64,000 nt of DNA from Squalus acanthias. Its lineage: Eukaryota. The stretch spans positions 60,142,001 through 60,206,000 of the forward strand of contig CM059432.1 of the NCBI GenBank assembly GCA_030390025.1. The letters are read 5' to 3'. The notes below the pieces were generated by a model. It searched no databases and was not told where the DNA came from. It was given only the letters and a program-made list of their open reading frames with translations. Made by a program: the position numbers and the translations under genes. Of this stretch, positions 4,650 to 64,000 are shown in pieces (the first letter of the stretch is position 1; each line of letters begins with the position of its first letter).

Positions 4650-5798
4650 GTGTTTCCTGGTATCGCACACGGATGAGTTCTTCACGGACAGCCCGGCCAG
4701 AAAGGGCCTGTCTAGGTTGCCTCCTCTCTTCCTCCTACTCCTCCAACCTCATGCTTCTCATCTGGTCACCGTATTGCTGGTGGCAAAGGCTGTGCCCTCA
4801 TGATGGCGAGGCTGTGCAGCATGCAGCAGACCACCACGAATCTCAACACCCGCTCTGCCGAGTACTGCAGGGCTCCTCCAGAGCGGTCCAGGCAGCGGAA
4901 GCATTGTTTCTGCACGCCAATGATCTGCTCTATCACATTTCATGTGGAAGCATGGCTTTGATTGTATGCATGCTGCCCACATGTGCATGGGTTGCGCACC
5001 GGAGTCATGAGCCATGTCGTCAGCGGATAGCCCTTGTCACCCAATAGCCACCCTTTGGTTTGGCCTGGTGGCTCTAATGCAGATGGCACAGCAGACTGCC
5101 GCAGAATGAGGGCATCATAACTGCTGCCAGGATACCAGGCATTGACCTGCATGATTCGCTGCCTATGGTCGCACACCAGCTGGACATTGAGGGAGTAGAA
5201 TCCCTTTCGGTTGTGGTACATGTCAGAGTTGACATGTGGTGCCCACAAAGTGATGTGCGCGCAGCCAATGGCACCCTGCACCACGGGGAAGCCTGCAATC
5301 CCAGTGAAGCCATGTGCTCGCTCTGCCTGCTGGCTACTGGCAAGAGAATAAAATGTAGTCAGCTCTCTTTGAATACAGAGCCTCAGTGACCTCCCTTACA
5401 CAACAGTGGATGGCAAACTGCGAGATGTTGCAAATATCTCCAGCTCCAGCCTGGAAGGAGCCCGACACACAAAAGTTCATCACCACGGTCACCTTCAGAA
5501 CCACTGGCAATGTGGTCCTTGCCCTGCTCTGAGGTTGCAGTTGTAGCTGCTGCAGGGGGCAGATTTCAGTGAGGACGCCCTTACTGAAGTGCAGACGTCT
5601 CACACATTGTTCCTCACTGAGGTTCAGGTAGAAGAATTGCTCCCTGAATACCCTCGGCAGATATGGCCTCCTGCTGAGAGCCCTTCTCCCTCTCCTCTTC
5701 CTCCTCCCTCTTCCAGCAGCTTGACCTGCTCTGTGTCGCCCCTGTTCATTCTCCAAGTCATGCTATATTCCAAGGGGAATTCCTGCTAGTGCACCCAT
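4650..5798 (-). pseudogene. HARBI1-like Harbinger DDE transposase, frameshifted
   Basis: Motifs: SGSFQAGAGDICNISQFAIHCCVREVT; VQGAIGCAHI (catalytic D lost); [42 protein letters not shown]. Confidence 0.9.
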
Positions 5799-32330: not shown

Positions 32331-35300
32331 AGCAGCGGAATTAAACGGAGTGCACTTAAACAGAGTGTTTCATTTGGGAATTTGGAAAGAGTGGGAATTC
32401 GGAGAAGAGGGGGAAGGAATTGCTGCTTTTTGCCTACACTACTTGTGGTGCTTCGTGTTACAGGTAGATATTTAATTACATTATCCATAACTTAATCTAG
32501 ATCAATTAAGTAGTCAAGAAACGAAACTGTAAACTAAGTTACTTAAACACAAATGTAATTAAATTTAATTAAATAGAACAAGGTCATATAGGGATAACAG
32601 TACAGGTGGTGTGCCTCAACTGCAGCATGTGGGAGTTTGTGGAGATCATTGCTTTTAGATCAGCCACGTTTGCAGTAAGTGCCTGCATCTTGAGAAACTT
32701 CAGCTCAGAGTTGTTGAGCTGGAGTCTGAGGTGCAGACATTGCGGGGCATCAGGGAGGGGGAGAGTTATCTCGACACTTTTATCCAGGAGGCAGTCACAC
32801 CCCTTAGGTTAGGTAGTGGTACAGGTCTGGTTAGTAGTCAGGGACAGGAGGGTGTGACTGCAACTCAGGCAGCTAAGGGGACCCCAGGTGAAGTGCTGGA
32901 GGAGCTTCGGCATTTGTCCTTATCCAACAGGTATGAAGTTCTTGCTGCCTGTGTGGATGAGGGAAAAGCCTGCAGGAATGGATGAGCAAGCTCACCATGG
33001 TACCATGGTGCAGGAGGCGATTCAAGTGGGGGCAGTGAAAAGGAATGTGGTAGGGGACAGTATAGTCAGGGGGATAGATACTGTTCTCTGCAGCCGCGAC
33101 CGGGAGTTCCGAAGGTTGTGCTGCCTGCTCGGTGCCAGGGTTAAAGACATCTCCTCACGGCTGGAGAAGAACTTGGAGTGGGAAGGGGAGGATCCAGTTG
33201 TCGTGGTCCACGTAGGAACCAATGACATAGGTAGAACTCGGAATGAGGTTCTGCTGAGAGAGTTTGAGGAGTTGGGGTCCAAATTAAAAAGCAGAACCTC
33301 AAAGGTAATAATCTCTGGATTGTTACCTGAGCCATGCGCCAATTGGCATAGGGATAAGCAGATTAGAGAGTTAAATGCGTGGCTCAAACAGTGGTGTGGG
33401 AGGCAGAGGTTTTGCTTCATGGGGCACTGGTACCAGTACTGGGGAAGGAAGGAGCTGTACCATTGGGACGGGCTCCACTTAAACTGAGCTGGGACCAGTG
33501 TCCTGGCAAATCGAATAACTAGGGCAGTAGACAGGGCTTTAAACTAATGAAGCGGGTTGGGAGGATTCAGGAAAGTGTAAATTTAAAAGCAGCAAGAGAA
33601 ATGTCATGGCTCTAGAGCAGAGTAGAGTTTTGGGTAAAAATAAGCAGAGTGGGTCAGGAAGTGACAGAGAGAGTAACAAAGGTAATAGGGCATCAGTGAC
33701 TAAGGTGACATCAGGGAAAAATAGAAAAAAGTCAAAGCTAAAGGCACTATATCTGAATGTGCGAAGAATTCGCAACAAAACAGATGAATTAATAGCGGAG
33801 GTATAAATTAACAGGTTTGATCTAATAGCCATTACGGAGATGTGGTTGCAAAGTGACCAAGGTTGGGAACTAAATATTGCAAGATACTTAAATTTTAGAA
33901 GAGATAGGCACAATGGAAAGGGAGGAGGAGTTGCCCTGATAATAAAGGATGGGATAAAGACAGTAGAGAGAAAGGATCTGAGCTCCGAAAATCAAGAAGT
34001 AGAATCAATTTGGATGGAGCTAAGAAACAGCAAGGGGCAGAAGACATTGGGGGGAGTTGTTTATAGGCCCCCAAACAGTAGTTGTAATGTCGGGCAGAGT
34101 ATAAGTCAGGAAAATAAAGGCGCATGTAACAGGATAATACAGTAATCATGGGGGACTTTAATCTACATATAGACTGGGCAAACCAAATTTGCAGTAATAG
34201 TGTGGAGGACGAATTCATGGAATGTGCAAGATAGTTTTCTAGATCAGTATGTTGAGGAACTAACTAGGGATCAGGCTATTTTAGATCTAGTATTGTGCAA
34301 TGAGAAAGGGTTAATTAATGACCTTGTAGAAAGGGGCCTTTAGGGAAGACTGACCATAATATGATAGAATTTTATATTAAGTTTGAAAATGATTTGGTTA
34401 AATCCGAAACTAGGGTCTTCAATCTAAACAAAGCAAACTATGTAGGCATAAGGGGGATGAGTTGGCTAAGGTAGTTTGGGAAACTACATTAAAAAGTATG
34501 ATGGTAGACAAGCAATGGCGCGCATTTAAAGAATTAATATATAATTTACAACAAATATACATTTCTTTAAGGCACAAAAACCCCACAGGAAAAGCGGTCC
34601 AACCGTGGCTAACAAGAGAAGTTAAAGATAGTATTAGATCAAAGGAAGAGGCTTATAATGTTGCCAAAAAGAGCAGTAAGCCTGAGGATTGGGAGGATTT
34701 TAGAATTCAGCAAAGGAGGACCAAGAAATTGATAAAGAAAGGGAAAATTGAATATGAGAGTAAACTAGCGAGAGACATAAAAACAGACTGTAAAAGCTTC
34801 TATTGGTATGTAAAAAGGAAAAGATTAGCAAAAGTAAATGTGGCTCCCTTACAGGCTGAGACAGGAGAAATTATAATGGGGAATAAGGAAATGGCAGAGA
34901 AATTAAACAAATACTTTGTGTCTGTTTTCACAGAAGAAGACACTAAAAACCTTCCGGAAATAGTGGAGAACCAAAGGTCTAGCAAGAATGAGGAACTGAA
35001 AGAAATTAGTATTAGTAAAAAAATAATACTGGAGAAATTAAATGGGACTGAAAGCTGATATATCCCCTGGACCTGATGGCCTACATCCTAGGGTTTTGAA
35101 AGAGCTGGCTATAGAGATAGTGGATGCATTGGTTGTTATCTTCCAAAATTCCATAGATTCTAGAGCGGTTCCCGCAGATTGGAAGGTAGCAAATGTAACC
35201 CCACTAGTTAAGAAAGGAGGGAGAGAGAAAATGGGGAACTACAGAGCAGTTAGCCTGACATCAGTCATAGGGAAAATGCTAGAATCTATTATTAAGGATG

Positions 35301-39339: not shown

Positions 39340-40352
39340 GGGGGGAATTTTGACCCCAAAAAACAGGTGGGTTGGGGTCAGGTTAGAGGTTAAACAGTTA
39401 AAAAACAGAATCCCGAACCCAACCCACCTCCAACTGTGGGCGGGCGGGTTTCCCTGGCCTTGGGGAACCTGCTAGCTAAAGGGAGGCAAGGACTGCTGCA
39501 TCCAGGAGGTAAGTGCCTTTCCACTTACCTGCTGGATCTAGTGTTCCTGCCTCGCCAACCCCCCACGATCGGACACCCACCCCGATCCTTCCGTTTTCCC
39601 CCTGACCTCCCCCTGCCCTGAGGCCTCCGATCCCCCCCTCCAGCCCCCGATCTGGCCTTCGATCCCTGGACCCCAATCCTCCTCCGCCCTCCCTCCCCCC
39701 CACCGAGCCCTCCGATCCCCCCTCCGGCCTTCTGACCTCCCCACTCCGGCATCCGATCACCTTCCCGGCCTTCGGATCTTCCCCCTCTGACCCCCCATTG
39801 CCTTCCAGCCTTCCAACCTCACCCCTCCAGCCCCGATTACCTTCCCGGCCTTCCGACCTCACCCCTCCAGCCCCGATTACCTTCCCGGCCTTCCGACCTC
39901 ACCCCTCCAGCCCCGATTACCTTCCCGGCCTTCCGACCTCACCCCTCCAGCCCCGATTACCTTCCCGGCCTTCCGACCTCCCCCCTCCGGCCCCCGATAA
40001 CTTTCCCGGCCCTCCCCCTCCGGCCCCGATCCCACTCTGGCCCTCCCCCTCCGGCCCTGATCCCACTCTGGCCTTCCCCCTCCGGCCCCGATCCTCCTCC
40101 AGCCTCCCACCCACCCCCATCGATCCCTCCCTCCCACCTCTCTGCGACTTGGTGCCGCAGGCCTAGCCGTCTGACAGCCAGCCAGCCAGCCTCTCCATCT
40201 GGCTGGCTGCGGGCGGGAAACAGAGTTTTGAAATGCTAATCAGACCCCGCCGTTAAATTCAGCAGGGCCTGCGGGAAACCCGTTCTCCCGGGTTTGCCGA
40301 CCACTTTCCAGCTCCCCCGCTCCCTACCTGCCTCCAAATTAAAATTCCGGCC
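39340..40352. mobile_element. Harbinger-type non-autonomous element with an internal minisatellite, inserted in a CR1
   Basis: Splits ggacacaaa|gagtctgc with a 3-bp duplication. Ends are ggggggaatttt / aaaattccggcc. Confidence 0.8.
39809..39990. repeat. 40-bp minisatellite, 4 copies plus a partial copy
   Basis: Unit ccttccgacctcacccctccagccccgattaccttcccgg starts at 39809, 39849, 39889 and 39929, with a partial copy at 39969. Confidence 0.95.
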
Positions 40353-47146: not shown

Positions 47147-49913
47147 GGCATAGAAATGCGGTAGCCCTCGAAAACAGGCACAGGAATCGCGAGGCGATAG
47201 GAATCCGTGCTCGTTCGGAGGACTGCAGGTAGCACGTAAAATTCGTGCTGCCTACTGCTTTGCATGATTGTAGCGCTGAACATGCTGCTGAGTAGCTGAA
47301 TGCTCAGCAGGGGACGCAGAATAGGGTGGCACATAATAGATGACAGCAGACCTTAAGTGGCGGGGGATCTCACCTCACCCCCTTGGAGGAGACAGTGCTG
47401 GCCTGCAGCCGGGCAGGGCAAAAGGGTAGTTCAGATGTCAGCTCCCCGGAGCTGCACAGGACTCAGATGAAGACCTCGATGGGGCAGCTTACAAAAGAAT
47501 GCTGATGGGTATGCACAATGAAATGCTTGGTGCATTTTACAGGCCTGCCAGAAAGCCTGAATGCAATGTCAAGCAGCATGGAGGAGTCCAGCTCCAGCCT
47601 TGCACAGGGCTCTGGGCAGAGCTTGGAGACCATCCTTTCCAGTGTGGAAGGCTGGCCAGATCCATTAACGCACTTGTGAACCCAACATCATGCCGCGTCT
47701 GATGGTCGAGGTCTCAGCTTCCACTGCAGCGCAAGCACAAGCCACCTAACATCTGAGTGCTGCAATGGAAGCTCAGACTGAAGTCGTGCAAGGACAGCCT
47801 GCTGCCATTATGGCTGGGTTTCCCAGTGTTGAAAGGGGCTTGCAGGGTGTCACAGCAGTCCAGCTGTCTGTACTCCAGCAGATTACTAGGATTGCTGAGA
47901 TGCTGCCCCTGGGGAGTGGCAATGGATCCCTGCAGGATGACCTTGCTGCCATCTGCATTCTTCCCCACTGAAAGTCAGCAGCCTTCCACCAACCATGCTG
48001 CAGCCACTGGGGTTGCACTGCGTAGTAGCACAAGGACAGGCAAAGGCACACACAAGACAGTCACTAAGGTAATGCACAGGGTGATTATTTAAATCTTTGA
48101 TGTATTATTGGATGGATATATGGATAAACTTTGATTGGAAAGTTTGCTTTGTGGTGGCTTTTATTTCAGCATTGTGTCCAAGATGACGCGGTGATGGTCA
48201 GTAACAGAGGTAAGGTAAGGTGTGGAACTAATATTGAATGGGGAATTGGGGATGCTTTCCATTATACCGCAGGTGGATGATTTGATCCCGGATATCCCGG
48301 CCATAAAGGGGCTGTCTGGGTTGCCTCCTTCCTTCCATTTCCGCTTCTTCCACCTCCTCCTCATCTTCCTCCTCCTCTTCCTCCTCCTCCTCCTGCTCCT
48401 GAGCTGGTGGCCGCAACCCCGGTGCCAATGGCTGTGCCTTCATGATGGCCAGGTTGTGGCGGATACAGCAGACCACAATGAATCGGGACACAGGCTCCGG
48501 TGAGTACTGTAGGGCTCCTCCAGAGCATTCCAGGCAGCAGAAGTGTTGTTTAAGGACGCCAATGGTCTGCTCTATGATGTTTTGTGTGGCAGCATGGCTC
48601 TCGTTGTACGCAAGCTGGCCACGTCTGGTTGGGTTGCGGAGTGGAGTCATGAGCCAGGTGGTCAAGGGATAGCCTTTGTCGTCCAGTAGCCACCCTCTGG
48701 TTTGTCTTGTTGGCTCAAAGACTGAGGGAGCAGCGGAATTACTGCTGCTAGGATGCTGGACATTCACCATCATGATGTGCTGGGCACACCAACTGCACAT
48801 TCAGCAAGTGGTAACCGTTGAGGTTGCAGTACAACTAAGCATTTATATAATGTGCCCGTAAAGCCATGTACGTGCAGTCAATGGCGCCCTGCACCATGGG
48901 GAAGTCCACTATCCTGGCAAAACCACGTGCACGCTCCGTCTGCTTCTCTCTGGTCAGAGAGAAGGCAATGAAGTTCCCTCTCCTGGCATAAAGAGCTTCT
49001 GTCACCTCTCTTATGCAGCAGTGGACAGCGAACTGCAAGATGTTACAGATGTCGTCTGCTCCAGCCTGGAAGGATCCCGACGCAAAGAAATTCAGAGCCA
49101 CGGCCACCTTCACAGCCACTGGCAACGCTGTCCTTACCCTGGAGTGAGGCTGCAGGTCGGGTTGCAAGAGGCGGCAGAATTCTGTGAGCACCTCCTTCGT
49201 AAAGTGCAGAGGCCTCACACACTGCTCCTGGTTCAGGTTGAGTTGAAAGAATTGCTCTCGGAAGACCCTTGGTGGGTAAGGCTTCCTGCTGAGAGCCCTT
49301 CTTCCCCTCCTTCCTCTGTGAGCAGCTTGTCCTCTTCTTCGCTGCCTCTGCTCCATCTCCCTGTCATGCTGCAGGCCAAGGGGGATGACAACTAGAGCAC
49401 CCATGACTGGGAGCAAATGGTCTGACCAGAACCCTTGAATTCAGAAGCAAGGCCTTCTCCACTTGCAGCACCACTCCCTGTCACCTCAGCAACGTTATAT
49501 AGCTCTAGAAAGCTCCAAACAGCTCCTCAAACTTACACAGAACAAGTAGAAATCAAAAAGCAAGTTACCTGAAAGTTGTTGATGATCCCTTTAAATACCG
49601 GTGGTGGGGTGTCCTTCCTGCTGCTGAACGCATGTTCAGCTGTGCGAGGTGAGGAGAGGGCGCTAGCTCCAGCAATGACGATGAAAATGGCAGTGCTGGC
49701 ATCAAATCAGCATTGCACGCTAATTGACATCAGGATCTGCCTACTTACCATATTTCTCGAGCATGCTAACAGCCGCCCTACCGCCCTCACCAAGATGGTG
49801 TCAGGCACAGCCTGCACCAGAAGTGTGTACGTGCTGCTTGGGAGCCATTTTGGTCCCAATTCGGCACCTGTAGCACTCATACAATGGGCGCTACGGAACC
49901 AAATTTCTAGGCC
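47147..49913. mobile_element. Harbinger copy D, with most of the Myb gene deleted
   Basis: TIRs ggcatagaaat / atttctaggcc, a Myb 3' remnant at ~47370-48090 on +, and a transposase on -. Confidence 0.85.
48228..49404 (-). pseudogene. HARBI1-like transposase of copy D (two ORF blocks)
   Basis: Motifs: ALNFFASGSFQ, VQGAIDCT, WLLDDKGYPLTTWLMTP, HAATQNIIEQTIGVLKQHF, and a poly-E tail. Confidence 0.9.
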
Positions 49914-55850: not shown

Positions 55851-57657
55851 CCAAACACGTTGAGCAAGCGCCATAAGCCAGGAGCCTATTAAAATGAGGG
55901 GGAAGGACTCTTGTTGGAAAAGTTACTGAGGCCTGCCATGTGAGCTGGCTGGCTTAACCCCATTTTTATTGGAAATTCAGGTCTGTAGGCACTTGATAAT
56001 GAAGGCTGTACTTCAATGATATGAACAGTTACAGTAAGAAATACTGCTTTATGTGTACTAATCGCTAAGAAGATACCAGATTTTGCTAAGCAAGGTAAAA
56101 CACAAATTAATTTAAAATAGGGTTTGATCAGTCAATGTTAAAATTGCTAATTTGTTTACAAAATACATGCAGCTCTTATTAATGAAAGAATCTTTTTTGC
56201 CCCAACAAAATTTCACTTCATCAAAAACCAAATAAATAAGCCTTGATAGAGACTGACAGTTTGATAAAACAAAAAAAGCAGAAAATTTCAGTTGTTACAG
56301 TAAACAACTCTATTTGAAACTGTTGGGATCTTGTTGACTCAAAATGCCATTTCGAGACTCTCAATATAAACAATTGTGCTGTATTATCAAAAGTAGTAGT
56401 ACTACCCATATGTACCATTGTGAAGAATTAGTCAACTTTTTTGTCAACACAACAATTTCACTATTACTATTATATACTATCTATTCTTCTGTGTCCTTAA
56501 CCTGAAATCTACATAATTTTCCAAAATTTATAAAAAGACTTTCTATAAACACACATAATAAGCACATTTGAGAGATTAGATCAGTATAGAGGCAGAGATT
56601 AATCATTTTGATCTGTGAGATACGTTGTATTTGTCCTTACAGGTTGTTTATAGATAATCTGGGGTCCAGAATGAGGCTTCTGGACAATTGCCTCTCAATG
56701 ACCTCCTGTCACTGCTGCTCCAGTGAGAGGCCTGATGTTCACCCTCTGCTGTTCCCAAGTGCTGTGTTAAAAGTCCCACATGTAACTGTCATGGCAGTTT
56801 TTTTCCCTCTGGTTCTACAGAGGAAGTTTACAGCCAGCAAGCTATACAACTTTTTAATATTCTGAACAGTGGAAGAAAGAAAAGCAGCATGTGGGTACTA
56901 ATTATAACAACAAAATTACATGTGTTGGAGATTAAAATTGAGAAATAGTTTAAAAAAATCCTATTTACATGAAGGAATCACTTACATTGATTTCATTTTA
57001 TTAGTTCTGTAGTTAAAAACTTGGAATTAAAAAACCTGCAAATGTAGCTGACAGGCAATATCTGCAGAATGTTAACAAATCTGTAATACATCATATAAAA
57101 TAGCCTTGGATAGTTCTAATCTCATGTATACATCTATATTTTTATTCTTTTCTGTACAAGTAAATAGGTAAGGTAGTTTATGTTATGTCCTGAGATTGTG
57201 CTGTGGAGCTTTTTTCAGTCTTTGGTATGTTGAGCTAATAATACCTAATGTAAAACCAAGAGTGAAAGTCATGGAGGAGGTGCTGTAATGGCCTTTTAGC
57301 TCAGCTTAGAAGCAAGACAATTGTGATGTGAAGTTGTGAGATAAAGAAGGGAGACATCTGGAAGATTGAACTCAACTGACTGTACTGTTCATATCTTATG
57401 CAGCAAAGCATCCTTTGTAATTTCAGTGTTGGCCATGAGTATGTCACTTTTAATTTTTAATAAACTTTGACTCCATGTCCAATAATTCATCCTTGGCTTA
57501 CAGGCAATATAGTATTACAAAATTTACATTCCTAATGCAGGTTGAAATTATGCTGTGTGATATTATTAATGAACTCATGAAATTTCATTGCTCTCTACTT
57601 TAACAAAAATGAGAAGTCGCACAACACCAGGTTATAGTCCAACAGATGTATTTAATT

Positions 57658-57696
57658 TTACAAGCTTTCGAAGCAGTTCGCTCCTTCGTCAGGTAA
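57658..57696 (-). ncRNA. Second copy of the minimal hammerhead motif (left arm)
   Basis: Exact reverse complement of 60463-60501. Confidence 0.75.
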
Positions 57697-57915
57697 GTTA
57701 GCAATGAGAGAATCTCCCAGAATTCACAATTTAAACCCAGACAAAATCTATTCACATTATTCCCTACAACAAAGAGCACAGCCAAGACAATGAGATGTGT
57801 CCCAGGGGGTCCAACGTGTCAAACCACCTGCTGGCTGCATATCCTGTCAATTTGTGTTCTTGTGTTAGTCTTTTTAAAAAAAAAAACACCTGGGAAGACC
57901 GGCCATGATGTCAAG

Positions 57916-59061
57916 TCACGTTCTGTATCGTGACATGAACCCGATATCGCGATTGAGGCCATCCTCATGAGTGCGGAACTTGGCTATCAGTTTCTGCTCT
58001 ATGATTTTGCGCTGTCGTGTATCTCGAAGGCCGCCTTGGAGAACGCTTACCCGCAGATCCGAGGCTGAATGCCCCTGGCTGCTGAAGTGTTCCCCGACTG
58101 GGAGGCAACCCTCCTGCCTGGCGATTGTTGCGCGGTGTCCGTTCATACGTTGTCTCAGTGTCTGCATGGTCTCGCCGATGTACCATGCTCTGGAGCATCC
58201 TTTACTGCAACGTATCAGGTAGACAACGTTGGCCGAGTCACATGAGTATGTACCGTGTACCTGGTGGGTAGTGTCCTCACGTGTAATGATGGTATCTGTG
58301 TCCATGATTTGGCATGTCTTGCAGAGGTTGCCGTGGCAGGGTTGTGTGGTGTCTTGGTTGCTGTTCTCCTGAAAGATGGGTAATCTGCTGCGAACGATGG
58401 TACTTTTGAGGTTAGGCGGCTGCTTGAAGGCGAGTAGTGGAGGTGTGGGGATGGCCTTAGCAAGGTGTTCGTCGTCATCGATGACATGTTGAAGGCTGCG
58501 AAGAACATGGCGTAGTTTTTCCGCTCCGGGGAAGTACTGGACGACGTAGGGTACTCTGTTGGTTGTGTCCCGTGTTCGTCTTCTGAGGAGGTCTATGTGG
58601 TTTTTCGCTGTGGCCCGTCGGAACTGTCGATCGATGAGTCGAGCGTCATATCCCGTTCTTATGAGGGCGTCTTTCAGTGTCCGTAGGTGTCCATCGCGTT
58701 CCTCCTCGTCTGAGCAGATCCTGTGTATTCGCAGGGCTTGTCCATAGGGGATGGCTTCTTTAACGTGGTTAGGGTGGAAGCTGGAGAAGTGGAGCATCGT
58801 GAGGTTGTCCGTGGGCTTGCGGTAGAATGAAGTGCTGAGGCGTCCGTCTTTGATGGAGATTCGTGTGTCCAAGAATGAAACCGATTCTGAGGAGTAGTCC
58901 ATGGTGAGTTTGATGGTGGGATGGAACCTGTTGATGCTATCGTGTAGTCCTTTCAGTGATCCTTCGCCGTGGGTCCAAAGGAAGAAGATGTCGTCGATGT
59001 ATCTGGTGTACAGCGTTGGTTGGAGGTCCTGTGCAGCGAAGAAGTCTTGCTCGAACTTGTG
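57916..59061 (-). pseudogene. Penelope-like RT C-terminal half plus GIY-YIG endonuclease, open but 5'-truncated
   Basis: RT motifs RYIDDIF, VSFLD and YRKPT; endonuclease motifs CKTC, VVYLIRC...WYIGET, RMNGHR, VGEHF, EQKLI and GLN. Confidence 0.92.
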
Positions 59062-60243
59062 GGACCAAATTCGCACCCCAATACGCCAACATCTTCATGC
59101 ACAAGTTCGAGCAAGACTTCTTCGCTGCACAGGACCTCCAACCAACGCTGTACACCAGATACATCGACGACATCTTCTTCCTTTGGACCCACGGCGAAGG
59201 ATCACTGAAAGGACTACACGATAGCATCAACAGGTTCCATCCCACCATCAAACTCACCATGGACTACTCCTCAGAATCGGTTTCATTCTTGGACACACGA
59301 ATCTCCATCAAAGACGGACGCCTCAGCACTTCATTCTACCGCAAGCCCACGGACAACCTCACGATGCTCCACTTCTCCAGCTTCCACCCTAACCACGTTA
59401 AAGAAGCCATCCCCTATGGACAAGCCCTGCGAATACACAGGATCTGCTCAGACGAGGAGGAACGCGATGGACACCTACGGACACTGAAAGACGCCCTCAT
59501 AAGAACGGGATATGACGCTCGACGTCGATCGACAGTTCCGACGGGCCACAGTGAAAAACCGCATAGACCTCCTCAGAAGACGAACACAGGACACAACCAA
59601 CAGAGTACCCTACGTCGTCCAGTACTTCCCCGGAGCGGAAAAACTACGCCATGTTCTTCGCAGCCTTCAACATGTCATCGATGACGACGAACACCTTGCT
59701 AAGGCCATCCCCACGCCTCCACTACTCGCCTTCAAGCAGCCGCCTAACCTCAAAAGTACCATCGTTCGCAGCAGATTACCCATCTTTCAGGAGAACAGCA
59801 ACCAAGACACCACACAACCCTGCCACGGCAACCTCTGCAAGACATGCCAAATCATGGACACAGATACCATCATTACACGTGAGGACACTACCCACCAGGT
59901 ACACGGTACATACTCATGTGACTCGGCCAACGTTGTCTACCTGATACGTTGCAGTAAAGGATGCTCCAGAGCATGGTACATCGGCGAGACCATGCAGACA
60001 CTGAGACAACGTATGAATGGACACCGCGCAACAATCGCCAGGCAGGAGGGTTGCCTCCCAGTCGGGGAACACTTCAGCAGCCAGGGGCATTCAGCCTCGG
60101 ATCTGCGGGTAAGCGTTCTCCAAGGCGGCCTTCGAGATACACGACAGCGCAAAATCATAGAGCAGAAACTGATAGCCAAGTTCCGCACTCATGAGGATGG
60201 CCTCAATTGCGATATCGGGTTCATGTCACGATACAGAACGTGA
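59062..60243 (+). pseudogene. Penelope-like RT C-terminal half plus GIY-YIG endonuclease, 5'-truncated, with one frameshift
   Basis: Begins at GTKFAPQYANIFM. A tca-to-g change near 59524 shifts the frame; otherwise it matches the left arm. Confidence 0.92.
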
Positions 60244-60462
60244 CTTGACATCATGGCCGGTCTTCCCAGGTGTTTTTTTTTTTAAAAAGACTAACACAAG
60301 AACACAAATTGACAGGATATGCAGCCAGCAGGTGGTTTGACACGTTGGACCCCCTGGGACACATCTCATTGTCTTGGCTGTGCTCTTTGTTGTAGGGAAT
60401 AATGTGAATAGATTTTGTCTGGGTTTAAATTGTGAATTCTGGAAGATTCTCTCATTGCTAAC

Positions 60463-60501
60463 TTACCTGACGAAGGAGCGAACTGCTTCGAAAGCTTGTA
60501 A
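60463..60501 (+). ncRNA. Minimal type I hammerhead ribozyme motif in the Penelope 3' repeat
   Basis: Reads UUAC-CUGACGA-A-GGAGC-gaacu-GCUUC-GAAA-GC-UU-GUAA. It has the CUGANGA and GAAA cores, stem II GGAGC/GCUUC, stem I UUAC/GUAA and a palindromic AGCU stem III. Confidence 0.75.
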
Positions 60502-61290
60502 AATTAAATAAATCTGTTGGACTATAACCTGGTGTTGTGCGACTTCTCATTTTTGTCCACCGCAGTCCAACGCCGGCATCTCCACATCATGTACTTTAAC
60601 AAAGGCATTGGGGCCTATTTAACATTTTGAGCAAAATGGGCTGTTGGTGGGTAAAGTATGTTAGCCATCCACCCATTGTTGCTCCCATGAGGCCCTAGCC
60701 ATTTTGAAGCCCGAGACTTATTTGCATGGATCTGGTGTGCTGCCCATGCTGAACTGACACACACCGATTGGGGATGATGGTGAATTGGCCAGTTCCTATG
60801 TGGCGTGGCATAACAGTACGGGCCTGGATGGGACTGTGCACATGCCGCCAGCGGGCTGGAGTATTTTGTGGGACCAAGAGGACCAAGCTGGAGATTATAG
60901 AGGATAGATGACAGGAGACCAACGAGGAGAGCATTGGCGTAGTTGAGTCGGAAGATGAAGATGAGGTGGGCAATGTTAGAGGTGGAATTATTTGGTCATT
61001 GTGATGGAGAAGATATGGGCCTCGATTTTAATGGAGCAGGCGGGTTGGAGTCGGGTTGCATGGTGACGGGTTTCGGACCAGCTGCCGGTTTCTGCCGGTT
61101 TCAGCCGCTCCCAGTGTCTCATTTTGATTTAATTGGACCAATTAGTCCCGTTGTGCACGCTGCCTGCTGCAATGAGTTGGAGCGGGTCTGTTGGTCTGCA
61201 CTGATGAGGTCTTTGCTGCTCTTGTTTTTAAGGGCTCCATGTAGCCTCAGCCTCCATTTCTCGTTGCTGCTGGTAAGGGCCAGGATCACC

Positions 61291-63164
61291 ATGAGTGCTG
61301 CCACAGGCAAGAAGGCTGCTCCTAGATTCAATGATGACTCCCTGCAAGCTCTTGTAGAGGGAGTAAGAGAGCGCAGGGAGATTCTGTTCTGTGCCAATGG
61401 CTGCAGGAAGCCTCCTCAACAGACGAAGGCAGCCTGGCTGGAGATAGCTGAGGAGGTCAGCACAAGGTCGCTGTGTGGACGCACCTGGCTCCAGTGCCGC
61501 AAATGCTTCAATGGTCTTGTTCGAACATCAAAAGTGAGTATCACATCACATTTACCTTCACTCTGCTTCCCTTCTCTTCTCATCACCAGCACTCTGCATT
61601 GTCAGCCTGCTCCTCTACATCCCACCTTACCCTTACTTCCCTTGCACCCTTACCTTTCTATCTCTCTCTCTGTACTGAATCACTTCACCATCCTGCTATG
61701 CAGCCCTCACACTCGCTCTCACTGTTATGCAATGACAACAACTAACAACGCATAGGGAGGCTCCTTCCTCTTGCCACCTCACTCCATCTTGGCCTCCCTC
61801 TAAGATTCTACCTTATACATTCTTCACACTCACTTGTGTCCCTCCTTGCAGGAAAAGATAGCCCACAATAAGAGGGAGAGAGCCAAGACAGGAGGAGGCA
61901 CACCATCACTCAACACATTAACTCATGCTGAGGAGGCTGCTCGCGACATCATGGGAGGTGGCGAGGAGCTGGAAGTGGGGGACTGAGAGACAGGCGCACT
62001 AGAGGAAGCTGGTGACAGAATGCATTTTCATCCCTTGCATTTACAATTCATGATTGACTGCAATAGCATATGTTGCTCATAGAGATTGACTTCTGATCAT
62101 CTTCACAATAGGATGTGTCTGCTACCTCCAGACCTGATGTCTAACTCATGCCTTTACTCTCCCACAGGACCATCGAGAGCCTCCCTCCCCACTGTCCAGG
62201 AGGAAGAGCCAGATGAATCCTCAGAGGAACCTGGAGCCTCTGAGGGAGCAGTGTCACCAGGACTCAGCGCACCCAGCACCAGCACAGATACGCACACCTC
62301 GGGGGGGTCCTTCGCGACATACAGTAGTGTTGTCACCTGGTGTATCACAGATCACAAGTGAGCATCAGCAGATACTGGAGACAGCGACAGCAGTGGACAG
62401 TCCTCGTCGGAGGTCGCAGGACTCTCCTAGCTCAGCTCATCTGCATGTAGATGCTGTCCCTCTGGGGCCATCCAGAAAGAGAGCGGTGCTGGAACTCCAG
62501 GAACAAGTGCAGGAGTCTCTGACAGGGTTTGCATCCAGGGTAACTCCGAGTGTGGAGAGAATGGAGGAGTCCATCTCTAACATGAGCACTGCCTTTGTGG
62601 AGGCAATGACGCATGAACGTGCCACTATGGAGAGGACATAAGTCGCCACACTCAACAGAGCATGGTGACTCTTCTAAATAGATGGTCTGCTATGGAGGAT
62701 AGATGGGCATCTATTGAGGAGAGACACCAGAGGTACATGGACGTCCCCGTTATGAGGACTGTCAGTACTGAGATGGGTCCTCATGGCTCCACTGAGGTGC
62801 AGCAGGTTGCTCTCCAGCCACTTGCTAGCAGTGAAGTGCAGGTGACCCATGAGAGGGATGTTGGTGGCAGACAACAAAGAAGTGTGGGCTCCTCTCCAAG
62901 CGCTCACACGACCATGCCACTGCAGAGCCCTTGGTCAGAGCCCCAGGTTTCTCACCCACTGAGATGGCCGTATCAGCCCCTACAAAGCCGCAGGAAGAGC
63001 AGACTGTGGAGGAGCCCTCACAGGCTCCCAAACCCAGAGGACGCCCATCAAAGCTGTCTAAGCAGGCGCAGCACCAAAGTGAGCAAGGTGCCTCTACACC
63101 TGCTGAAGCCACAGGGGAAGCACCACGTAGGAGCACGCATAAGAAGAAGTTAAAGCACAAATAG
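61291..63164 (+). pseudogene. Myb/SANT-like gene of copy F: exons 61291-61533, 61852-62011 and 62168-63164
   Basis: Exon 1 MSAATGKKAAPRFNDDSLQALVEGV...AWLEIAEEV...WLQCRKCFNGLVRTSK|gtgagt; exon 2 cag|EKIAHNKRERAKTGGG with one stop; exon 3 is phase-compatible but frameshifted and ends KKKLKHK*. Confidence 0.85.
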
Positions 63165-63439
63165 TCGCAAGGGTAGCCACTTGGGTGTTTTATAGCATTG
63201 TTAAATATCGAGTTTGTGATGCAATTAAACAAACGTGATGGCAAAGAGTTGAGGTTCTGGCCTATGTGTTCCGGGAAATGGAAGTTCAAGAGTGAGGGCT
63301 CAGGGCTAATTCCATTTATAATGATGGTGCGAGAGTGAGATGAAACCACCGTTTATTGGACAGATCATGCATGACGTTTTGAGAACGTCGGCCTTATATT
63401 CATCTCCATCTGCCAGCCACTTGTGTTTGAAGCGTAAGT

Positions 63440-64000
63440 TTACGCAAATCTGGCATGGATTAGTGCTTCCCTTGTCAAACGGCCAGCAATGTGGTCGAGT
63501 GCGGCTGCATTGGCCACATCCGGCCCTGCAACACGTGGCTCCCTGTCCTCCTCCTCATCCTCCTCCTCATGCTCCTCCTTGTCCTCCTCCTCGTCCTCCT
63601 CTTCTTCTTCCGAGGAGTGTGTGTGCTGAACCACTTGTTCGCCCGGCAGACCTAAGCCGCGCTGCTGTGCCATGTTGTGCAGGGCACAGCAGACCACGAT
63701 GATTCTGGACACCCTGGCTGGTGCATACTGCAGGGTTCCACCAGATCTGTCCAGGCATTGGAGGCGTATTTTGAGCAAGCCGATGGTTTGCGCGATGATG
63801 CTTCTGGTGGAAATGTGGCTCACATTGTAGTGCTCCTCAGCCTCGTTTGTTGGCCTCCTCATCGGTGTCATAAGCCACTTTTTCAGGGGATAGCCCTTGT
63901 CACCAAGTAGCCATCCGGAAAGTTGGTTTGGCGGATGGAAGAGCTGAGGCACAGTAGACTGGCGCAGGTTGAAGGAGTCATGGCAACTGCCAGGGTACTT
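63440..64000 (-). pseudogene. HARBI1-like transposase C-terminal half (the 5' part lies beyond the window)
   Basis: Contains [24 protein letters not shown] and [17 protein letters not shown] (the expected catalytic E appears as A), plus an acidic tract. Confidence 0.85.

What the first reader, a model, noticed from the sequence alone, without database searches (positions are those of the whole stretch)
57596..60603. Young ~2.95-kb Penelope palindrome made by one insertion event
Seen in the sequence: two ~1.46-kb arms lie head to head around a 38-nt spacer (59062-59099) that is itself RT sequence (GTKFAPQYANIFM). By eye I count about nine differences between the arms, many of them CpG-type transitions, plus one indel. 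One 12-bp duplication (TACTTTAACAAA) brackets the whole structure. Established knowledge: Penelope-like elements often form inverted, truncated partial tandems. Inference: both target strands were primed on the same or identical RNA, or the cDNA folded back. An almost symmetric, coding-length hairpin with a clean TSD is an unusually clear record of this mechanism.
Basis: partly seen in the sequence, partly recalled or inferred. Interest (0 to 1): 0.75.

Follow-up and report, generated by a model that had tools for sequence, protein, structure and literature searches.

The report
Polymorphic head-to-head Penelope retrotransposon insertion
Two half-length, non-autonomous copies of a Penelope-like jumping gene landed mirror-wise in one event in a shark-like genome; this layout is already described for these elements, and the copy is young enough that another individual still lacks it.

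Summary
The palindrome is in the sequence as described: arms 57603-59061 and 59100-60556, a 38-nt RT spacer and one 12-bp duplication. The arms differ by 8 substitutions (6 at CpG) and one complex indel. Contigs from 3 of 4 public runs (another individual, two related species) leave the window exactly at 57607, so the site is empty there; no shown contig crosses a junction of the filled allele. Both arms share one rare Leu>Phe change, pointing to one source template. Most likely a Neptune-type Penelope-like element primed both target strands, at the two RT start sites bounding the tail, and the truncated cDNAs joined over 1 nt (0.6). cDNA fold-back is the rival (0.25). An inverted 5'-truncated copy, one-sided tail and single TSD are the published architecture of these elements. 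The scan noted the same kind on other DNA (this genome and others). An ordinary kind in an unusually clean copy; the near-symmetry is unexplained.

The parts
57596..57607 (+). Left copy of the 12-bp target-site duplication (10 of 12 A/T); its last 5 nt are also the end of the left arm
   Evidence: Contigs of runs X2, X7 and X9 align through 57607 and then leave, so these bases are target-derived
57603..59061 (-). Left arm: inverted, 5'-truncated, tail-less copy of the Penelope-like element
   Evidence: It ends at the T5 run where 66 contigs of run X2 also leave into unrelated flanks (loose ends at 57605)
57658..57696 (-). Minimal hammerhead ribozyme motif of the left arm
   Evidence: Core found on the minus strand at 57692-57666; mirror of 60463-60501
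57916..59061 (-). Open 381-aa ORF remnant: RT motif YIDD, thumb, C-X4-C-X2-C linker, GIY-YIG endonuclease with CCHH residues; the N-terminal ~55% is missing
   Evidence: 90% identical to a Heptranchias perlo protein
58827..58827 (-). Rare non-CpG change (Leu>Phe) shared with the right arm at 59334
   Evidence: Leu in 32 of 33 close homologous segments; the other letter in all covering contigs of the 4 runs (27, 35, 45 and 22 contigs)
59062..59099 (+). 38-nt spacer, which is the extra 5' part of the right copy (RT sequence); 1-nt overlap (G59061) with the left arm
   Evidence: Family sequence upstream of 59061 read from loose ends in runs X7 and X9
59100..60556 (+). Right arm: direct 5'-truncated copy, frameshifted at 59522/3, stop codon at 60241-60243
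60463..60501 (+). Minimal type-I hammerhead motif: 4-bp stem I, core CUGAnGA, extra A, 5-bp stem II closed by G-C, palindromic AGCU in place of stem III
   Evidence: features as in PMC4209133. No Rfam hammerhead hit
60557..60591 (+). 35-nt tail, present on the right unit only
   Evidence: Its first letters match the family continuation seen as loose ends at 57603 in X1 and X2; 30-40-bp one-sided tails are described in PMC8557442
60592..60603 (+). Right copy of the 12-bp target-site duplication

Best explanation
A single retrotransposition of a Neptune-type Penelope-like element by priming from both target strands. (1) The GIY-YIG endonuclease nicked AT-rich DNA on both strands 12 nt apart (inferred from the duplication). 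(2) The bottom-strand end primed cDNA at the outer end of the tail and ran about 1530 nt, to 59061. (3) The top-strand end, whose last 5 nt pair with the RNA at the U5 run just inside the tail, primed a second cDNA that ran about 1455 nt. (4) Both cDNAs came from the same source RNA, either one molecule used twice or two from one locus. (5) The two truncated cDNA ends were joined over 1 nt and filled in. Since then the arms have decayed independently, mostly at methylated CpG. The product lacks the N-terminal half of the ORF in both directions and cannot move on its own. Shown: anatomy, departure of contigs at the target site, shared variant, CpG bias. Inferred: order of priming, number of RNA molecules, who made the second strands.
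For: One duplication brackets both arms and there is no target DNA at the centre. The site is empty in X2, X7 and X9. The two outer ends are 35 nt apart on the element, at the two ends of the tail. A purified anole Poseidon protein cleaves and extends both strands, starts at two sites bounding the tail and is predicted to be a dimer (PMC11167929). The tail-less end recurs in the family: 66 contigs leave at 57605 in X2 with 0.36 agreement, i.e. varied flanks. Both arms share a rare variant. Both arms carry their own derived changes, left at least 2 and right at least 5, mostly CpG. There is no stable hairpin at the end of the longer cDNA (about -1 to -4 kcal/mol, z above +1).
Against: Independent truncation would rarely give arms within 39 nt of each other (4-8% in a simple uniform model), so a coupling step must be assumed; the case was also picked for its symmetry. 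The in vitro work is on a different clade and reports initiation without homology to the cut DNA, whereas 5 nt match here. The spacer sits on the tail-bearing arm, as fold-back requires. The shared variant fits fold-back equally well. Recurrent tail-less ends may include direct copies. No shown contig crosses a junction of the filled allele (32 of 42,954 pieces shown).
Confidence: 0.6

Rival explanations
1. Fold-back (self-priming): one cDNA primed at the right end stopped at 59061, looped back 38 nt, copied itself for 1.46 kb and was captured by the 12-nt target overhang through the 5-nt match at the left end.
For: It explains the near-symmetry, the spacer on the tail-bearing arm and the shared rare variant without extra assumptions. 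Self-priming was proposed for head-to-head junctions with palindromes (PMC3846280). Both arms begin right after a CATG in the family sequence, which could have tethered a loop.
Against: Only 1 nt of overlap closes the loop and the cDNA end has no stable fold. The CATG is not retained at the junction, and two separate cDNAs could anneal through it equally well. The left end falls on a family-wide recurrent end that matches a demonstrated RT start position in a relative.
Confidence: 0.25
2. Not made at integration: a pre-existing palindromic unit was copied whole, or a single-arm insertion later gained an inverted duplicate, or two insertions stacked.
For: Two opposite-strand joints in the family appear at 5-8 times single-copy depth (58099/58220 in X1, depth 76; 58095/58933 in X7, depth 121), so some inverted joints may be multicopy. 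The shared variant fits a later duplication.
Against: There is one duplication, no second duplication or target remnant at the centre, and both outer ends sit at tail boundaries. This centre junction is not among the 15 of 32 joints shown. The arm differences look like decay after insertion.
Confidence: 0.1
3. Assembly or chimeric-read artefact.
For: No shown contig supports the filled allele; X1 is uninformative (its piece ends at 57531, 55% of the run read) and the other three runs are empty. Such structures are known to trouble assemblies (PMC8557442).
Against: The arms differ by CpG transitions in both directions (p = 4e-5), which sequencing errors would not give. A fold-back chimera would mirror the flank as well, and would not create a 12-bp duplication or a one-sided tail at the family's own ends.
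Confidence: 0.04

Closest known systems
Canonical EN+ Penelope-like insertion units with an adjacent inverted 5'-truncated copy and a one-sided tail (PMC8557442; A. vaga Pen2a/Pen2, PMC3846280; D. virilis Penelope, PMC2377424; passages read)
   Same: Head-to-head copies, inverted copy 5'-truncated, 30-40-bp tail at one end, one TSD (9-10 bp in the A. vaga examples, 12 bp here), minimal hammerhead in the terminal repeat, AT-rich target.
   Different: In the passages read, the inverted part is usually pLTR-sized or variable and flanks a partial tandem with a full ORF. Here there is no tandem, both copies are cut inside the RT, and the arms are 1.46 kb and almost equal.
Poseidon of Anolis carolinensis (PAc) in vitro (PMC11167929, main text read)
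   Same: Both strands cleaved and extended; two RT start sites bounding the tail; AT-rich target.
   Different: Different clade (no C-X2-5-C-X2-C linker by PMC8557442). It is reported to start without homology to the cut DNA, whereas 5 nt match at the left end here. No ATT motif at either inferred nick here.
LINE-1 twin priming (10.1101/2024.08.27.596794; PMC11702581; passages read)
   Same: Second target strand primes inside the RNA through short complementarity; the TSD is preserved; two cDNAs are joined head to head.
   Different: In L1 the second primer lands near the end of the first cDNA, so the two parts barely overlap (1-10-bp deletions or duplications in PMC11702581). Here both start within 35 nt of the 3' end and overlap almost fully.

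Membership tests
EN+ Penelope-like elements | Single ORF with RT followed by a C-terminal GIY-YIG endonuclease | tested here: met
   381-aa remnant aligns over 99% with full-length RT proteins. RVT_1 in P0001, P0005 and P0058; weak GIY-YIG hit (E 0.008) in P0005. The arm alone has no Pfam hit at E 0.001; motifs read from the alignment.
EN+ Penelope-like elements | CCHH motif with two cysteines between GIY and YIG (PMC8557442) | tested here: met
   C-X3-C at residues 285-289, His at 309 and 325; C285 and H325 invariant in 9 sequences
EN+ Penelope-like elements | Minimal hammerhead in the terminal repeat (PMC4209133) | tested here: met
   Core, extra nucleotide after position 9, G10.1-C11.1 pair and palindromic 15.2-16.2. 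Rfam gave no hammerhead hit. Cleavage not tested.
EN+ Penelope-like elements | Inverted 5'-truncated copy, 30-40-bp tail at one end, variable-length TSD | tested here: met
   against PMC8557442 and PMC3846280
EN+ Penelope-like elements | Partial tandem with a full-length ORF (autonomous unit) | tested here: not met
   Only about 45% of the ORF is present and there is no other copy in the window. This excludes autonomy, not family membership.
Neptune/Nematis clades (versus Penelope/Poseidon) | C-X2-5-C-X2-C linker upstream of GIY-YIG (PMC8557442) | tested here: met
   C242, C247 and C250 invariant
Neptune clade (versus Nematis) | Placement in an RT phylogeny with named references | not testable with these tools
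   No clade-labelled sequences were available. Neptune is inferred from the linker and from a preprint that found only Neptune and Poseidon in its vertebrate sample (10.64898/2026.07.22.740005, passages).
LINE-1-type twin priming | Second primer anneals near the end of the first cDNA, so inverted and direct parts barely overlap | tested here: not met
   The arms overlap over 1457 nt. It works like twin priming but is not the L1 pattern.

The most novel reading that the evidence does not exclude
Long near-symmetric Penelope palindromes record two RT subunits copying the same RNA in turn. The first cDNA starts at the tail end; the second invades at the U5 site, displaces the first and stops a fixed enzyme footprint (about 38 nt) behind the stalled leader. 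Spacer length would then cluster near 30-40 nt and the spacer would always lie on the tail-bearing arm. Polymorphic shark insertions would become a natural readout of the unresolved PLE integration step.
Probability: 0.15. Interest if true: 0.55.

Novelty: new member of a known kind. Interest (0 to 1): 0.24.

Why it matters
How Penelope-like elements make their inverted and tailed units is still open (PMC8557442, PMC11167929). This copy gives all three junctions at base resolution, has an empty allele, and puts its two outer ends at the two tail boundaries, as the in vitro data predict. One copy cannot decide between two-strand priming and fold-back; a census in a genome where the family is abundant could. 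By inference only, a 1.46-kb, 99% inverted repeat could be a fragile site or, if transcribed, a source of long double-stranded RNA against the family.

Tried and rejected
No whole genome is held for the window, so no census of symmetric copies was possible. A terminal-repeat motif found 0 matches in JGI metagenomes. The alignment search there gave 5 short loci at 29-39% identity, none with an inverted repeat over 25 nt: uninformative. No solved structure matched. The only Rfam match, MIR6459 at 30.8 bits against a gathering score of 100, just reflects the hairpin. Run X1 does not reach the junction. The states of the arm-difference sites were not among the 40 of 100 variant rows shown, so polarity comes from CpG direction and proteins. 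Only the left flank, left arm and spacer were laid, so the right junction and the letters beyond 57607 in the empty allele were not seen. Host-gene context: 95 ORFs of 100 aa or more outside the element gave only transposon-type domains; short exons would be missed. In one search my bracket string was one character short, so its stem I pair list is out of register; stem I is taken. Searches for a paper on this arrangement in sharks or on a both-strand PLE mechanism by six terms returned 0; the library lacks most subscription papers, and supplements were not read. An absolute age was not attempted: only 2 non-CpG substitutions, and conversion between arms is possible.
Full report
Observation. 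The structure is in the sequence as described. The arms are 57603-59061 (1459 nt) and 59100-60556 (1457 nt), 38 nt apart. They differ by 8 simple substitutions and one complex change at 59522-24. Six of the 8 are at CpG positions, which make up 162 of 1457 positions (p = 4e-5). The 12-mer occurs twice in 64 kb, at 57596 and 60592. No other copy of the element lies in the window. The right unit has a 35-nt tail (60557-60591). The last 5 nt of the left duplication double as the end of the left arm. Each arm carries a minimal hammerhead motif near its outer end.

What the element is. The left arm holds an open 381-aa frame. It is 90% identical to a Heptranchias perlo protein, and the next named hits are from Scyliorhinus, Mustelus, Hemiscyllium and Chiloscyllium, so the host is probably a shark (inference). 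The frame has the YIDD RT motif, a C-X4-C-X2-C linker and a GIY-YIG domain with CCHH residues. By PMC8557442 (passages) the linker marks Neptune or Nematis. Neptune is inferred from host range (10.64898/2026.07.22.740005, passages); no tree was built. Against three full-length homologues the longer unit covers 44-46% of the ORF. The right arm is also frameshifted. Neither copy is autonomous. The hammerhead shows the features listed in PMC4209133 (passages); Rfam does not detect it.

Empty site and age. Nine public runs hold part of the left flank; 4 of them were laid on 56500-59099. In 3 of 4, a contig aligns through 57607 and continues into other sequence. These are X2 (organism A, 371 aligned, 464 nt beyond, depth 11.6 against 11.9 for the flank), X7 and X9 (two other organisms, 439 nt beyond). 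X1 stops at 57531. So another individual and two relatives lack the insertion, and the left 12-mer is target DNA. The letters beyond 57607 were not printed, so a single 12-mer in the empty allele is inferred, not seen. No shown contig crosses a junction of the filled allele, but only 32 of 42,954 pieces, 15 of 32 joints and 24 of 1344 loose ends were displayed. The flank differs from X1 at 4 of 845 and from X2 at 7 of 908 positions, and from the relatives at 3.9-4.0%. The arms differ at 2 of 1295 non-CpG positions (0.15%, 95% interval 0.02-0.56%). This fits an insertion still polymorphic in the species.

One template, then decay. Both arms carry Phe at a site where 32 of 33 close homologous segments have Leu. 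At that base (58827/59334) every covering contig in all four runs has the other letter (27, 35, 45 and 22 contigs), though contigs drop rare variants. The arms therefore share a source: one RNA, one cDNA or one locus. Their differences polarise to both sides. Right-derived are 59552, 59588, 60018, 60208 and the complex change (Ile, as on the left, in 41 of 46 homologous segments). Left-derived are 58598 and 58444. Two sites are unpolarised. This is the pattern of methylation decay after insertion and not of sequencing error.

Junctions. At the right, the tail runs straight into the duplication; the family sequence beyond the tail was not available, so overlap there is untested. At the left, the arm stops at a T5 run just inside the tail, with 5 nt matching the target end. 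This end recurs: 66 contigs of X2 leave at 57605 into varied flanks (agreement 0.36), and 32 and 27 contigs of X7 and X9 leave at 57612. At the centre, loose ends in X7 and X9 give the family sequence upstream of 59061, leaving a 1-nt overlap. The end of the longer cDNA has no stable fold. Unexplained: both arms begin directly after a CATG in the family sequence (13 CATG in 1531 nt). Annealing through it would give the same product under either mechanism, but the observed junction lacks 5 nt of that product.

Mechanism. Best reading (0.6): both target strands were nicked 12 nt apart and both primed cDNA from the same source RNA, one at each end of the tail; the truncated cDNAs were then joined. 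A purified anole Poseidon protein cleaves and extends both strands, starts at two sites bounding the tail and is modelled as a dimer (PMC11167929, main text read). Against it: near-equal arms are unlikely under independent truncation (4-8% in a uniform model, before allowing that this copy was picked for symmetry), and the anole protein needed no target homology. Fold-back (0.25) explains the symmetry and the side of the spacer, and was proposed for rotifer elements (PMC3846280, passages and Discussion). It has only 1 nt to close the loop and does not predict the recurrent left end. Copying of a pre-formed unit or later duplication gets 0.1 and artefact 0.04. A single PLE-made event of either leading kind is about 0.85.

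Comparison with what is known. PMC8557442 describes an inverted 5'-truncated copy adjacent at the 5' end and a 30-40-bp tail at one end as common PLE features. PMC3846280 shows inverted pLTRs with a tail on one and a 9-10-bp TSD, and calls head-to-head the most frequent arrangement. PMC2377424 notes large inverted terminal repeats of variable size in D. virilis (passages). It works like L1 twin priming but fails that pattern, since L1's two parts barely overlap (passages). What differs from the examples read is degree: both arms reach into the RT and are almost equal. Two searches found no paper on this in sharks or on such a mechanism by six terms; the library is partial and supplements were not read. 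Earlier notes of this scan report the same kind: 1.8-kb mirrored copies in this genome and a 4.2-kb palindrome in another. I did not check them.

Surroundings. The window is transposon-dense. Of 95 ORFs of 100 aa or more outside the element, those with Pfam hits were RT, DDE_Tnp_4, Myb/SANT or GDSL-type. The insertion sits in AT-rich sequence just left of a Harbinger-like element (Myb/SANT in 60943-61752, DDE_Tnp_4 in 63443-64000). No host gene was found.

Verdict. Real with high probability, made in one event, polymorphic, non-autonomous. It is a new member of a known kind; interest 0.24. The open point is why the arms are so nearly equal. If a census showed spacers clustering at 30-40 nt on the tailed arm (probability 0.15), these copies would report directly on the PLE integration step (interest 0.55).

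Noticed in passing
window 59061 and 59096-59100: Both arms begin right after a CATG in the family sequence, yet the junction does not keep it; 13 CATG occur in the 1531-nt unit.
   Followed up: partly
window 59517-59527 versus 58631-58644: The complex change in the right arm turns an imperfect palindrome into a perfect 10-bp one, as a local template switch would; the left arm keeps the ancestral form.
   Followed up: partly
joints, window 58099/58220 (X1) and 58095/58933 (X7): Opposite-strand joints inside the element at 5-8 times single-copy depth, so some inverted junctions of this family may be multicopy.
   Followed up: no
joints, window 57629/58971, 57653/58055, 57654/58306 (X1): Joints from the terminal region to internal coding positions at depth 62-326 suggest internally deleted, possibly non-autonomous subfamilies or partial tandems.
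   Followed up: no
window about 60611-64000: Harbinger-like element (Myb/SANT and DDE_Tnp_4 frames on opposite strands) starting a few bases right of the duplication; related copies with DDE_Tnp_4 at 4943-5395 and 48231-48800.
   Followed up: partly
window 56500-57004: Single-copy AT-rich flank about 96% identical in two other organisms; it holds a 91-codon frame (56590-56865) with no Pfam hit.
   Followed up: partly
window 39753-40032: Tandem array with a 40-bp period.
   Followed up: no
window 32858-33484: GDSL-lipase-like frame upstream of RT fragments, probably the ORF1 of a CR1/L2-type LINE (family name recalled).
   Followed up: no
proteins P0039, P0048, P0055, P0057, P0156: Pieces of this family's ORF appear inside annotated shark host-gene isoforms (for example XRCC5, follistatin-related 5); exonisation or annotation error.
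   Followed up: no
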